This document shows positions 14,216-14,938 of a DNA stretch of 24,000 nt, piece by piece. Position 1 is the first letter of the stretch, and each line of letters begins with the position of its first letter. A model generated the notes under the pieces. It did not search any database. It was not told the origin of the DNA and saw nothing but the letters and a program-made list of their open reading frames with translations. The stretch spans positions 678,800 to 702,799 of the forward strand of contig BA000048.1 in NCBI GenBank assembly GCA_000270325.1, given 5' to 3'. This DNA comes from Candidatus Caldarchaeum subterraneum. GTDB lineage: Archaea > Thermoproteota > Nitrososphaeria_A > Caldarchaeales > Caldarchaeaceae. The translations under genes and the position numbers were made by a program.

Positions 14216-14938
14216 GTAGCCTGATTAGGGGTTCCCTAAATGAGGGCTACCGCATAGGCCATCCCTCATCAAAGCGATGGGGATGGGATAGGATAGGGAT
14301 GGACCCGGGGCAAACAAACCAACCAAACCCCATACACGCCTGAAACAAGGCGTCCACCCCATTATTGCTGTGGGGTGGCGGGGGTGGTTGGCTGGCACCA
14401 GGCCCTGCTCCAGCCCATGCGTCAGCCGCCCCGATACCCGGACGTGCTTATGCATGGCAGACATCCCCTGTGGCGCATGGGTGGGGAAGGCTTCGGACGT
14501 GCTTATGCATGGCGGAGCCGGGGCAGGGCCTTCGTGGCAGAGGCCTGCCCACGTGTCTCGACAAAGCATACCCGGACGTGCTTAGCCATGACGGGTATGT
14601 GGAGGTGTGTAGGCCGTGCTTAGCCATGACTACACACCCTCCCTAGACACAGTGGACAGGACAGAAGATGTTCAGGCGCTCCGCCAAAGGAAGCTCTCGG
14701 AGCCATCTTCTCCATGGGAGAGGCATGGGGTCTCTTCCATCGGATTTCTCCATCAAGGCGCCATGGGGGTGCTTAGATGGAGAGGCTTCAAACCCTATGG
14801 CGGAGACAGACAATAAACGACGACTCTCGGAGAAACAATCCCCCCTCCTTTGGACGCACCAGTCCCTGCGGAGCGGCTGGGTGGATGCGGAGCTCCGGGC
14901 TTCAATGAGCCCGCCTCCCCAACAACCACAGGGGGAGG
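14216..14938 (+). ncRNA. Unclassified GC-rich, highly structured RNA region (possibly a long 5' leader of the LAGLIDADG mRNA) with a repeated 17-nt hairpin module
   Basis: Sharp AT-to-GC shift at about 14216. Only overlapping R/G/A/P/W/C-rich ORFs appear in several frames.
Helices foldable by eye:
- 14240-46/14263-69
- 14351-61/14371-80
- 14414-21/14474-81
- 14489-95/14513-19
- 14521-30/14542-50
- 14567-74/14592-99
- 14601-12/14630-42
- 14663-70/14704-11, enclosing two mini-hairpins
- 14748-54/14776-82
- 14897-901/14908-12
- 14914-20/14932-38
G.U pairs are consistent only with the + strand. A TATA-like TTATAT lies at 14190-14195. Confidence 0.55.

What the first reader, a model, noticed from the sequence alone, without database searches (positions are those of the whole stretch)
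14216..14938. A GC-rich, hairpin-dense RNA of about 720 nt carrying a conserved 17-nt module on unrelated, compensating stems
After an AT-rich spacer (13780-14215) the sequence becomes GC-rich and loses any credible reading frame, yet folds locally almost everywhere (at least 10 helices, listed in the feature).

The repeated module:
- The consensus is G(A/C)CGUGCUUA(UG/GC)CAUG(G/A).
- It occurs at 14496-14512, 14575-14591 and 14613-14629, each time as the apical part of a hairpin.
- The closing stems have completely different sequences: ggcttcg/cggagcc, catacccg/cgggtatg, and ggtgtgtag/ctacacacc (extendable to 12 bp with one bulge).
- A conserved loop on a freely varying but always complementary stem is what a functional RNA or protein-binding module looks like, not a recent DNA duplication.
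- A fourth copy (14441-14457) keeps the 5' flank of the third (gatacccg) but has no 3' partner.
- A partial GUGCUUAG (14769-14776) sits inside another hairpin (14748-14754/14776-14782).

Inside the module, CGUGC can pair with GCAUG, including a G.U that only works on the + strand. This leaves a small 5'-GA / 3'-R internal loop and a UUAU-type loop.

I could not match the region to rRNA, tRNA, RNase P (no GAGGAAAGUCC or ACAGAA..GGCUUA pair), SRP RNA, C/D sRNA or CRISPR.
Basis: seen in the sequence. Interest (0 to 1): 0.85.

Follow-up and report, generated by a model that had tools for sequence, protein, structure and literature searches.

The report
Structured leader RNA of archaeal homing-endonuclease gene
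A real, previously undescribed, about 720-nt highly folded RNA sits directly in front of a mobile DNA-cutting enzyme gene in the hot-subsurface archaeon Caldarchaeum subterraneum. Relatives of that gene in other hot-spring archaea carry equally ornate upstream RNAs, so this looks like a new RNA partner of selfish nuclease genes whose job is still unknown.

Summary
There are four copies of GGMCGUGCUUAKSCAUG (0.07 expected by chance). Three of them cap hairpins whose closing stems are unrelated in sequence but fully complementary. The 723-nt segment folds far better than shuffles (z = -8.8 on +, -5.6 on -).

There is no Rfam hit, no tRNA and no coding signal.

The window is Ca. Caldarchaeum subterraneum. 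The RNA runs without any T-run from a TTATAT box at 14190 to the start codon of an I-DmoI-like HTH-LAGLIDADG gene (14942-15841). It ends in a hairpin that buries the Shine-Dalgarno sequence.

A metagenomic relative keeps the last 253 nt at 84-85% identity, against 68% for the protein, with consensus-fold z = -6.8 on + and -2.6 on -.

Homologous genes in other Nitrososphaerota MAGs have GC-rich leaders of 0.1-1.5 kb. One carries five hairpins capped by a different, loop-E-like module on compensating stems.

Best reading: a structured 5' leader of a mobile homing-endonuclease mRNA, belonging to a broader unrecognised set. Its function is inferred, not shown: translational restraint, with the module array as a possible protein-binding platform.

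Limits: only two related sequences were available, no homolog of the module-bearing 5' part was found, and there is no transcript evidence.

The parts
14190..14195 (+). TTATAT, a putative archaeal TATA box. It predicts a transcription start near 14216-14222, where the GC-rich segment begins.
   Evidence: It is the only TATA-like hexamer in 13800-14300. TTATAT also lies at a similar short distance (a few tens of nt) upstream of the GC-rich leader in L047 (4631) and L036 (about 9897). The start-site position is inferred from known archaeal promoter geometry and was not measured.
14216..14941 (+). Structured leader RNA, GC 0.61-0.63, with 28 predicted helices.
   Evidence: z = -8.8 on + versus -5.6 on -. 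No Rfam hit. Six-frame translations find no protein among 5.8 billion. No T5 run inside.
14216..14250 (+). 5'-terminal hairpin: GUAGCCU/GGGCUAC with inner UUAGGG/CCCUAA.
   Evidence: pair probability 0.66-0.88. Positions 14222-14231 can alternatively pair with 15855-15864.
14319..14391 (+). Three-way domain: outer stem 14319-14331/14380-14391 enclosing hairpins 14336-14353 and 14354-14378.
   Evidence: pair probability 0.90-0.99.
14392..14540 (+). Long-stem domain (18 bp, 14392-14411/14520-14540) enclosing module copy 1 (in a junction) and the module hairpin 2.
   Evidence: pair probability 0.99; inverted repeat I6.
14441..14457 (+). Module copy 1, GACGUGCUUAUGCAUGG. No complementary 3' flank; it lies inside junction 14413-14482.
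14489..14519 (+). Module hairpin 2: stem ggcuucg/cggagcc, module at 14496-14512.
   Evidence: Folds at -19.1 kcal/mol, z = -4.3, 96% of the ensemble; the minus strand gives -9.4. Covariation.
14544..14660 (+). Domain closed by 14544-14560/14643-14660, holding module hairpins 3 and 4 side by side.
   Evidence: pair probability 0.92.
14566..14600 (+). Module hairpin 3: stem (g)cauacccg/cggguaug(u), module at 14575-14591.
14601..14642 (+). Module hairpin 4: stem ggagguguguag/cuacacacccucc with one bulged C, module at 14613-14629.
14689..14941 (+). 3' leader domain conserved in metagenomic contig L035 (84-85% nt identity). It includes hairpins 14714-14740 and 14742-14789.
   Evidence: All 76 consensus pairs are kept in both sequences: 17 pairs differ between the two in RNAalifold's own table (16 on one side only, 1 on both), or 15 by my own count on the same alignment. 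Shuffled alignments gave a mean of 10.6 and a maximum of 18 such pairs, so this count alone is not significant. The consensus-energy z is -6.8 on + versus -2.6 on -. Indels of 1, 1, 4, 1 and 3 nt break every reading frame.
14897..14938 (+). Two terminal hairpins: GGGCUU/GAGCCC, then CCUCCCC(11-nt loop)GGGGAGG. The 3' arm of the second contains the Shine-Dalgarno GGAGG, a few nt (about 4-5) before the AUG.
   Evidence: pair probability 0.95 and 0.83. The same CCUCCCC...GGGGAGG-AUG arrangement occurs in L035, L047 and L054, and a UCUCCC...GGGGAGG variant in L036.
14942..15841 (+). HTH-LAGLIDADG homing endonuclease gene (299 aa), identical to a Ca. Caldarchaeum subterraneum protein.
   Evidence: Pfam LAGLIDADG_3 at 2e-17. 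100% match to P0001. Both motif acidic residues (D104, E194) are invariant in 18 homologs. The AF2 model (pLDDT 86) is closest to I-DmoI.
15850..15874 (+). T6 run (putative archaeal terminator), then CCCUAAUCA (complementary to 14222-14230), then the end of homology with L035.
   Evidence: The C-terminal read-through of paralog P0003 (…PPIFSPMHIVK) suggests that a similar 3' end sequence (T-rich, then CACAUAG) follows that gene too (inference from back-translation, which does not locate where the similarity ends).

Best explanation
The segment is the long, highly structured 5' leader (about 14220 to 14941, + strand) of the mRNA of a mobile, I-DmoI-like HTH-LAGLIDADG homing endonuclease gene in Ca. 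Caldarchaeum subterraneum.

Proposed working:
- Transcription starts about 25 nt after the TTATAT box, runs through the leader and the ORF, and ends at the T6 run just after the stop codon.
- The leader ends in a hairpin whose 3' arm is the Shine-Dalgarno sequence, so the default state restrains translation of a potentially genome-cutting enzyme.
- The body of the leader is an 'ornate' expansion containing two multi-branch domains. These present three or four hairpins with the same 17-nt apical module.
- Because related leaders carry arrays of a different module, the module is most likely read by a partner that co-evolves with the element. The candidates are the encoded protein itself (autoregulation or sequestration) or a tertiary contact inside the same RNA. 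A universal host factor is less likely.
- Leader plus ORF plus terminator move or recombine as a unit, and leaders are exchanged or conserved more strongly than the ORFs.

Shown: the structure signal, its strand, compensating stems, absence of coding, contiguity with the ORF, conservation in one homolog, and analogous leaders elsewhere.

Inferred: the transcription start, the terminator, translational repression, and the binding partner.
For: - Repeats and stems are real.
- The fold z-score favours the + strand. The G.U pairs in the module and in stem 2 exist only on +.
- Against L035, the leader is 84-85% identical while the ORF is about 76% at nt level and 68% at aa level. No consensus pair is broken by the substitutions.
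- Consensus-energy z is -6.8 on + versus -2.6 on -. Indels destroy all reading frames. Six-frame translations have no relatives.
- There is a TATA-like box at 14190, no T5 run until inside the ORF, and a T6 run right after the stop.
- The Shine-Dalgarno hairpin has pair probability 0.83 and recurs in four other lineages.
- Leaders of homologs have GC 0.58-0.69 against 0.44-0.46 (one locus 0.51) for the ORFs.
- L047 has a 1.3-kb leader with five GAGUAGCCCGAUCGGGCGAAAG hairpins. These are 94.5% paired, 6 of 7 closing pairs are compensatory, and 0 of 500 shuffles reach this.
- L047, L052 and L054 share the 5' and 3' leader domains, with consensus z = -4.0 to -4.5 on + versus -1.6 to -2.8 on -.
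- L041 and L045 have a 100% identical leader but ORFs about 72% identical.
- The protein keeps both catalytic acidic residues and has an I-DmoI fold.
Against: - There is no expression data. The start, the end and any processing are predictions.
- Only one homolog of this particular leader was found. It covers only the last 253 nt, so the module-bearing part has no comparative support beyond its own internal copies.
- With two sequences, the count of compensatory pairs in the consensus is not above column-shuffled controls (15 against a mean of 10.6 and a maximum of 18). Single-sequence MFE tests are noisy.
- 700-1500 nt is far more than is needed to mask a Shine-Dalgarno sequence.
- L054 and L052 encode proteins close to L047's, yet their leaders lack the L047 module array. 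This weakens the idea that modules are obligatory binding sites of the encoded protein.
- Some family members have short leaders or none (L036 about 95 nt; L038 overlaps an upstream ORF).
Confidence: 0.5

Rival explanations
1. A stand-alone (or processed) stable non-coding RNA belonging to an integrated mobile element. It would be comparable in spirit to the large ornate RNAs of bacterial prophages. It would merely lie upstream of the endonuclease gene, or be cut out of the common transcript to act in trans, for example as a multivalent protein scaffold.
For: - The size (0.7-1.5 kb) and ornate multi-domain folds exceed what a cis-regulator needs.
- Repeated identical apical modules suggest multivalent binding.
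- The surroundings look like mobile DNA. In the window: a PhageMetallopep gene and inverted 147-nt repeats. In L047, L052 and L054: a tRNA gene or tRNA half about 95 nt after the ORF, and L047/L048 homology ending inside the tRNA.
- Leaders are conserved more strongly than the ORFs.
Against: - There is no oligo-T or other recognisable 3' end between the RNA and the ORF.
- The last hairpin contains the ORF's Shine-Dalgarno sequence.
- In every locus recovered, the GC-rich RNA directly abuts a LAGLIDADG gene, and none was seen alone. The search for RNA-only copies was, however, very limited.
Confidence: 0.2
2. A degenerate or atypical archaeal intron (bulge-helix-bulge type or group I) that carries its homing endonuclease gene. 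The GC-rich part would be the intron core, and the unit would have been copied to ectopic, non-genic sites.
For: - The protein's closest solved structures are I-DmoI and I-Tsp061I, both encoded in archaeal rRNA introns.
- The layout of GC-rich structured RNA plus a lower-GC ORF is what thermophile rRNA introns look like (my own knowledge).
- C. subterraneum rRNA genes are intron-rich, with a group I intron in the 23S gene (PMC4496867, PMC6125680, PMC3082918).
- A 10-bp helix can join the 5' end (14222-14231) to the 3' end (15855-15864).
- The shared unit ends sharply at about 15874 in the window-L035 comparison, and the read-through C-terminus of P0003 shows that a similar T-rich/CACAUAG tail follows that gene too.
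Against: - No two-bulge/4-bp motif can be drawn at the junctions.
- There are no Rfam group I or group II hits, even at E <= 10.
- No host gene is interrupted. The flanks are AT-rich non-coding DNA and differ between loci.
- The 3' arm of the end-to-end helix lies beyond the T6 run.
- L047 shows no comparable end complementarity.
Confidence: 0.1
3. A DNA-level element rather than an RNA. The modules (imperfect palindrome CGTGC-N4-GCATG) would be operator, iteron or nuclease-recognition sites. The hairpins would form in single-stranded or cruciform DNA, for example at a replication or transfer origin of the mobile element.
For: - The module stem is invariant in sequence, not just in pairing, as expected for sequence-specific recognition.
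- The gene next door encodes a DNA-binding HTH-nuclease.
- A chromosomal origin with ORB-like repeats lies 2 kb away.
- There are 9-nt inverted termini, TGATTAGGG/CCCTAATCA.
Against: - Operators and iterons do not need flanking arms that are unrelated in sequence yet complementary.
- The spacing of 55, 79 and 38 nt is not helical-repeat regular.
- G.U pairs become C.A mismatches on the other strand, and stability plus consensus-fold z-scores clearly favour one strand.
- The L047 module looks like an RNA-specific loop-E / sarcin-ricin motif (AGUA/GAA; by inspection and from my own knowledge).
Confidence: 0.08
4. Protein-coding or pseudogenised coding sequence in a GC-rich stretch.
For: ORFs of 66-124 aa exist on both strands.
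Against: - None of these ORFs is in the protein collection.
- A concatenate of all 14 stop-free stretches of at least 45 aa found nothing at E <= 0.01 among 5.8 billion proteins.
- There is no Pfam hit.
- The alignment to L035 has frame-breaking indels.
Confidence: 0.02

Closest known systems
HEG-bearing archaeal rRNA introns (for example the Desulfurococcus mobilis 23S intron encoding I-DmoI)
   Same: Both have a monomeric double-motif LAGLIDADG enzyme with the I-DmoI fold. In both, GC-rich structured RNA is physically joined to a lower-GC ORF. Both are found in thermophilic archaea and show evidence of mobility or multi-copy status.
   Different: No bulge-helix-bulge junction and no interrupted host gene. 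The protein has an extra N-terminal HTH domain. Almost all the structured RNA is 5' of the ORF and reaches 0.7-1.5 kb.
Nuclease-associated structured RNAs of mobile elements: HEARO/omega RNA with IscB, and the GIR1 lariat-capping ribozyme upstream of the I-DirI gene
   Same: A large structured RNA is encoded immediately next to, and co-inherited with, a selfish nuclease gene.
   Different: No sequence or structure match to these Rfam families. There is no evidence for a guide or a ribozyme function. The protein family is different from IscB/TnpB, and the element is not inside a group I intron as GIR1 is.
Large ornate RNAs of prophages and mobile DNA (GOLLD, ROOL, OLE)
   Same: The size class, the multi-domain fold with repeated sub-structures, and the location in mobile DNA near tRNA genes (in the L047-type loci).
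   Different: Those RNAs are bacterial, have Rfam models that do not match here, and are not leaders of a specific gene.
Protein-sequestering or autoregulatory RNAs with repeated hairpin sites (CsrB/RsmZ; the group II intron DIVa site that binds its own encoded protein and masks its start codon; type III toxin-antitoxin repeat RNAs)
   Same: Several copies of one short motif are displayed in hairpins upstream of, or around, the start of a gene whose product could bind them. The Shine-Dalgarno sequence is occluded.
   Different: Binding is untested. The repeats are not tandem identical units, there is no terminator between the repeats and the gene, and the protein is a DNA endonuclease rather than CsrA or ToxN.

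Membership tests
Any Rfam 15 family (rRNA, RNase P, SRP, riboswitches, ribozymes, group I/II introns, GOLLD/ROOL/OLE/HEARO, C/D sRNAs) | Covariance-model score at or above the family's gathering threshold. | tested here: not met
   No hit in the whole window. The best scores at E <= 10 are 12-18 bits against thresholds of 35-63. The same holds for 15700-17200 and for the L047 leader.
Archaeal bulge-helix-bulge intron | Two 3-nt bulges separated by a 4-bp helix, formed by the two exon-intron junctions. | tested here: not met
   Cofolding of 14190-14250 with 15835-15900 gives a 10-bp helix flanked by a 10-nt/1-nt asymmetric loop. No register gives 3-4-3. Relaxed forms were judged by eye only.
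Archaeal bulge-helix-bulge intron | It interrupts a host gene (rRNA, tRNA or protein-coding) that is restored by splicing. | tested here: not met
   The flanks are AT-rich non-coding DNA with no rRNA or tRNA hit. The downstream flanks differ between the window and L035.
Group I intron | A conserved P3-P9 catalytic core detectable by covariance model. | tested here: inconclusive
   RF00028 gives no hit at E <= 10 on 13700-15100 or 15700-17200. A core split by the 900-nt ORF, or a divergent subtype, could escape. Subtype-specific models were not available.
Group II intron | Domain V/VI downstream of the ORF, and a 5' GUGYG. | tested here: not met
   No RF00029 or D1-D4 hit. Only about 33 conserved nt follow the stop codon. 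The RNA starts GUAGCC.
K-turn / box C/D (L7Ae-binding) motif | A C-stem, a 3-nt bulge, then tandem sheared G.A/A.G pairs; or C (RUGAUGA) and D (CUGA) boxes. | tested here: not met
   By inspection of the four modules, position 2b would be U in one orientation, and no GA follows a 3-nt bulge in the other. There are no C/D boxes, and the Rfam C/D hits are noise. No dedicated 3D-motif tool was available.
CRISPR array | Identical direct repeats of 24-40 nt separated by unique spacers of similar length. | tested here: not met
   The repeats are 17-19 nt with spacing of 55, 79 and 38 nt. The 'spacers' are self-complementary arms.
Type III toxin-antitoxin (ToxIN-like) | Tandem identical RNA repeats, then a terminator, then an endoribonuclease toxin gene. 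| tested here: not met
   The repeats are not tandem. There is no T-run before the ORF. The ORF is LAGLIDADG, not ToxN/AbiQ.
Archaeal replication origin (ORB / mini-ORB repeats) | TTCCA-N-GGAAA dyad plus G-string repeats flanking an AT-rich unwinding element next to orc1/cdc6. | tested here: not met
   The module has no such dyad. A pair that does fit lies at 16814-16834/16983-17003, just upstream of cdc6.
LAGLIDADG homing endonuclease (for the downstream ORF) | Two LAGLIDADG helices ending in acidic residues, and the I-DmoI/I-CreI alpha-beta-beta-alpha-beta-beta-alpha fold. | tested here: met
   Pfam PF14528 at 2e-17. GD at 103-104 and DSEG at 192-195 are invariant in 18 homologs. Foldseek's top hits are I-DmoI with probability 1.0. 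Nuclease activity itself was not tested.

The most novel reading that the evidence does not exclude
The 0.7-1.5 kb GC-rich leaders form a new class of large ornate archaeal RNAs that work as a ribonucleoprotein with their I-DmoI-like HTH-LAGLIDADG enzyme. In this reading, the array of identical hairpin modules is a multivalent docking platform that sequesters, times or targets the nuclease. That would make it an RNA-controlled homing endonuclease, something not known for LAGLIDADG enzymes outside intron maturase activity.
Probability: 0.15. Interest if true: 0.85.

Novelty: new variant of a known kind. Interest (0 to 1): 0.62.

Why it matters
- Free-standing homing endonuclease genes are usually thought of as bare ORFs. 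Here a whole family appears to travel with long, strongly structured RNAs. The family has 55 clusters (at 50% identity) at E <= 1e-30 and 368 at E <= 1e-10, across Aigarchaeota/Nitrososphaerota and beyond.
- These RNAs are conserved or exchanged more tightly than the protein itself.
- They are absent from Rfam.
- They probably cause assembly breaks in metagenomes: most recovered contigs end inside or just before the leader.
- They contain textbook-looking RNA modules on compensating stems, so they are easy to test biochemically.
- If the RNA controls or partners the nuclease, it would add a new layer to how selfish nucleases are tamed in thermophiles. It could also offer heat-stable RNA-protein modules.
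- If it is only a translational brake, it is still an unusually elaborate one, and a new archaeal RNA family.

Tried and rejected
- **Rfam.** Gathering threshold on the whole window, and E <= 10 on 13700-15100, 15700-17200 and L047 4400-7400. Only noise was found, plus a genuine tRNA in L047.
- **Pattern scans for two modules 15-45 nt apart.**
  - In 185,579 species genomes: two unrelated tandem repeats.
  - In JGI metagenomes: 15 unrelated tandem repeats.
  - The source genome itself was not hit, so it is not in those collections.
- **Viral contigs.** The single-module pattern gave 16 single hits, at or below the number I estimated for chance (tens of matches, from an assumed collection size of order 10^11 bases). 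A conserved 3'-leader 28-mer gave 0 hits. Protein-anchored retrieval gave 0.
- **Spurious-ORF trick to find RNA homologs.** An exact look-up of 8 ORFs found none on record. A 1210-aa concatenate of all stop-free frames found no hit.
- **BLAST against phages and plasmids.** blastn with the RNA and tblastn with the protein both found nothing.
- **Second genomic copy.** The locus of paralog P0003 in the same genome could not be retrieved.
- **Direct homology between the window leader and the L047 leader.** Only the Shine-Dalgarno hairpin 12-mer is shared. I therefore treat them as analogous, possibly homologous only in the last roughly 60 nt.
- **Single-sequence MFE 'kept versus broken' test.** Results depended on which sequence was the reference, so I did not rely on it.
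- **Loop-loop complementarity of the module to the mRNA.** One 8-mer was found (GCAUAAGC at 15324), at about the chance level.
- **K-turn, bulge-helix-bulge, group II, CRISPR, iteron and type III toxin-antitoxin readings.** All rejected; see the membership tests.
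Full report

Yes.
- The sequence and the repeat finder give four copies of a 17-19 nt unit, at 14440/41, 14495/96, 14574/75 and 14612/13.
- A degenerate search finds exactly these four in 24 kb, against 0.07 expected.
- Three copies are flanked by perfectly complementary arms that share no sequence with one another.
- Folded alone, each forms the predicted hairpin with z = -3.7 to -4.3, and each is more stable on the + strand than on the minus strand. Hairpin 2 gives -19.1 versus -9.4 kcal/mol.
- Treating the three hairpins as an alignment, every cell pairs. Six of the seven closing pairs have changes on both sides, and no shuffle out of 500 reaches this.
- The whole 723-nt segment folds at -353 kcal/mol against -292 ± 7 for shuffles, so z = -8.8. 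The reverse strand gives z = -5.6.
- GC is 0.61-0.63, against 0.44 in the preceding spacer and 0.43-0.50 in the following ORF.

- GUGCUUAG at 14769-14776 is not a degenerate module. It is simply one arm of hairpin 14742-14789, and the homolog has GCGUUUUG there.
- The structured RNA does not end as a separate unit at 14938. Its last hairpin contains the ribosome-binding site of the next gene.

**2. What it is not.**
- No Rfam family reaches threshold anywhere in the window. With permissive filters the best hits are 12-18 bits for miRNA, snoRNA and lncRNA models. No tRNA is found.
- It is not coding.
  - The ORFs in it are absent from a 15-billion-protein collection.
  - A concatenate of every stop-free stretch in six frames finds nothing at E <= 0.01.
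  - The alignment to the one homolog carries indels of 1, 1, 4, 1 and 3 nt.

**3. Where it is.**
- The downstream ORF (14942-15841) is a LAGLIDADG_3 protein, 100% identical to a Ca. Caldarchaeum subterraneum protein. A 68%-identical paralog lies elsewhere in that 1.68-Mb genome.
- Its AlphaFold model (pLDDT 86) is closest to I-DmoI, PI-PfuI and I-Tsp061I. WhiA ranks lower.
- Both LAGLIDADG acidic residues are invariant in 18 homologs, so it is probably an active nuclease with an added N-terminal HTH.
- Upstream lie a PhageMetallopep gene bracketed by a 147-nt inverted repeat, and CSUB_C0723.
- Downstream lie a p27-like zinc-ribbon gene, an ORB-like inverted pair, and orc1/cdc6.
- The only TATA-like hexamer in the spacer, TTATAT at 14190, sits about 25 nt before the GC-rich start.
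- There is no T5 run from 13962 to 15278, and a T6 run follows the stop codon by 9 nt.
- The last hairpin, CCUCCCC/GGGGAGG (pair probability 0.83), places GGAGG a few nt (about 4-5) before the AUG in its 3' arm.

I therefore read the segment as the 5' leader of the endonuclease mRNA. The start site and the terminator are inferred from archaeal promoter and terminator rules, not measured.

**4. Comparative evidence for this leader.**
- The closest gene outside the genome (P0002, 68% aa identity) lies on metagenomic contig L035, which begins 261 nt before its start codon.
- Those 261 nt align to window 14689-14941 at 84-85% identity. That is better than the ORF, which is about 76% in 50-nt blocks and 78% overall including the leader.
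- In the RNAalifold consensus, all 76 pairs are kept in both sequences.
  - RNAalifold's own table lists 16 pairs changed on one side only, all G-C/G.U or A-U/G.U, and one double change.
  - Hairpin 14742-14789 alone carries seven such changes.
- Because a consensus fold is optimised, I compared it with column-shuffled alignments.
  - The number of changed-but-kept pairs by my own count on the same alignment (15) is not exceptional. Shuffles give a mean of 10.6 and a maximum of 18.
  - The consensus energy is exceptional, and it is strand-specific: z = -6.8 on + versus -2.6 on -.
  - A cruder test on single-sequence MFE folds gave inconsistent results, and I do not rely on it.
- Homology with L035 stops at about 15872-15874, some 30 nt past the stop codon, and the flanks then differ. 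The read-through C-terminus of paralog P0003 suggests that a similar 3' tail follows that gene too, although back-translation cannot show where that similarity ends.
- The module-bearing 5' two-thirds has no external homolog in anything I could reach.
- Contig L035 and the Logan contig L001 both break at 14689-14699. I suspect the region upstream of that point is a near-identical repeat between paralogous loci. This is an inference.

**5. The same theme in relatives.**

I fetched loci for ten further homologs.

- **Contig breaks.** Contigs very often end 50-1000 nt upstream of the gene (L001, L035, L037, L039, L041-46, L052, L053).
- **Multiple copies.** The same MAG can hold several copies. 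GCA_038831845.1 holds both P0007 and P0009, and L048 has two genes within 6 kb.
- **Mosaic pairs.** L045 and L046 encode the same protein with different downstream genes. L041 and L045 share a 100% identical 137-nt leader plus the first 30 nt of the ORF, while the rest of the ORF is about 72% identical. Leaders are therefore either exchanged or far more constrained than the proteins.
- **Leader composition.** Leader GC is 0.58-0.69, against 0.44-0.46 for the ORFs (one locus 0.51), in five sequence-unrelated leader types.
- **Leader length.** It ranges from about 95 nt (L036, next to a tRNA) to about 1.3 kb (L047-51) and about 1.5 kb (L054/55). One lineage (L038) has none, and instead follows a fragment homologous to window gene CSUB_C0723.
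- **L047 modules.**
  - The L047 leader contains five hairpins, 66-78 nt apart, each capped by GAGUAGCCCGAUCGGGCGAAAG.
  - Their closing stems again differ and compensate: 94.5% of cells paired, 6 of 7 pairs with double changes, 0 of 500 shuffles.
  - By inspection, AGUA/GAA flanking a GCCC-GAUC-GGGC stem-loop is the loop-E / sarcin-ricin bulged-G arrangement. This rests on my own knowledge and was not tested with a tool.
- **L047 versus L054 and L052.**
  - They share about 110 nt at the 5' end and about 430 nt at the 3' end of the leader (75-89% identity).
  - Their consensus-fold z is -4.0 to -4.5 on +, versus -1.6 to -2.8 on -.
  - An ORF control gives -2.1 and -3.2.
  - Their middles differ, and L054 lacks the L047 module.
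- **tRNA neighbours.** In these three lineages the ORF is followed about 95 nt later by a tRNA gene or tRNA 3' half on the other strand, a different tRNA each time. L047/L048 identity stops inside the tRNA. This is typical of integrated elements.

**6. Mechanism.**

Shown:
- a + strand-biased, unusually stable fold;
- repeated apical modules on compensating stems, in two unrelated leaders;
- contiguity with the ORF;
- a recurrent Shine-Dalgarno-containing terminal hairpin.

Inferred:
- The RNA is the mRNA leader, and the terminal hairpin limits translation of a nuclease that could damage the genome.
- The module array is a set of equivalent binding sites.
- Because the module differs between lineages, a universal host protein (L7Ae, ribosomal proteins) is a poor candidate. 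By inspection the window module also fails the K-turn consensus.
- The encoded HTH-LAGLIDADG protein, or an intramolecular receptor, fits better.
- Against the protein idea: L054's protein is close to L047's, but its leader lacks the modules.

I put 0.5 on 'structured cis-leader of the endonuclease mRNA'. Within that, only about 0.2-0.25 goes to 'modules bind the element's own protein'.

**7. Rivals.**
- A stand-alone or processed non-coding RNA of the mobile element: 0.2.
- A degenerate intron: 0.1. The I-DmoI-like fold, the intron-rich host and the 10-bp end-to-end helix speak for it. The missing bulge-helix-bulge, the missing host gene and the lack of a group I hit speak against it.
- A DNA-level operator or origin: 0.08.
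- Coding: 0.02.

**8. Novelty.**
- I found no description of such leaders. Full-text searches returned nothing on them. The C. subterraneum genome paper does not mention one.
- The family of genes is sizeable.
- I class this as a new variant of a known kind, namely structured RNA physically coupled to a selfish nuclease gene, rather than as categorically new. No new chemistry or logic has been shown.

**9. Limits.**
- There is no expression data.
- Only one partial homolog of this leader was found.
- The second genomic copy could not be fetched.
- 3D-motif assignments are by eye.

Noticed in passing
window 16814-16834 and 16983-17003 (with orc1/cdc6 at 17127-18392): An inverted pair, TTCCATAGGAAATGAAGGGGT / ACCCCTCTTTTTCCTATGGAA, flanks 148 nt just upstream of an Orc1/Cdc6 gene. 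It looks like archaeal origin-recognition boxes, so this is probably one of the chromosome's replication origins. The right end of the endonuclease unit (CACATAGGAAAAG, 15863-15875) shares CATAGGAAA with these boxes.
   Followed up: partly
window 12786-12932 and 13610-13756: A 147-nt inverted repeat (83% identity) brackets the PhageMetallopep gene (13065-13529). It makes two partial copies of the same unknown ORF (12636-13040 on + and 13337-13774 on -), which suggests a rearranged mobile-element remnant.
   Followed up: partly
window 11578-12444 (-) and L038 9651-10001: CSUB_C0723 is a 288-aa protein with no Pfam or PHROG hit. A homologous fragment lies immediately upstream of, and overlapping, the LAGLIDADG gene in archaeon HR01, so the two genes may belong to one mobile module.
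   Followed up: no
window 14222-14231 and 15855-15864: The 5' end of the leader (UGAUUAGGGG) is complementary to the sequence just after the T6 run behind the ORF (UCCCUAAUCA), and TAGG follows or precedes both. I estimate the chance of a 9-mer match between two 60-nt windows at about 0.01. It could be a terminal inverted repeat or a panhandle. It is not seen in L047.
   Followed up: partly
L047 5157-5477: There are five hairpins capped by GAGUAGCCCGAUCGGGCGAAAG, a loop-E / sarcin-ricin-like AGUA/GAA motif around a GCCC-GAUC-GGGC stem-loop. They have compensating closing stems and sit inside a 1.3-kb GC-rich leader of a homologous LAGLIDADG gene.
   Followed up: yes
L047 7288-7362 (-), L054 about 5245-5290, L052 about 2235-2280, L036 9703-9775: LAGLIDADG genes of this family repeatedly lie within 100-230 nt of a tRNA gene or tRNA 3' half, with a different tRNA at each locus. 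L047/L048 identity ends inside the tRNA. Either these are integrated elements using tRNA attachment sites, or the nuclease targets tRNA genes.
   Followed up: partly
L041 414-580 versus L045 1-170: The leader and the first 30 nt of the ORF are 100% identical between two loci whose ORFs are otherwise about 72% identical. This mosaic implies recent recombination or conversion confined to the leader.
   Followed up: partly
L040 1-57: The contig start carries AGATGTGTATAAGAGACAG, the Nextera transposase adapter. The 5' end of this ENA contig (ERZ1669417 NODE_2426) is therefore an artefact.
   Followed up: no
Protein hits P0009, P0010, P0014, P0015, P0079, P0126 and others: Many family members are annotated with about 100 extra N-terminal residues that are low-complexity (for example SDPGPDPGRRGRLAPAVSPD…). 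These may be mis-called translations of stop-poor GC-rich leaders. In L047, however, the called ATG sits right after the Shine-Dalgarno hairpin, so the extension there may be real.
   Followed up: no
window 14276-14305: GAUGGGGAUGGGAUAGGAUAGGGAUGG is a run of G-tracts near the 5' end of the leader that could form an RNA G-quadruplex as an alternative to hairpin 14259-14286.
   Followed up: no
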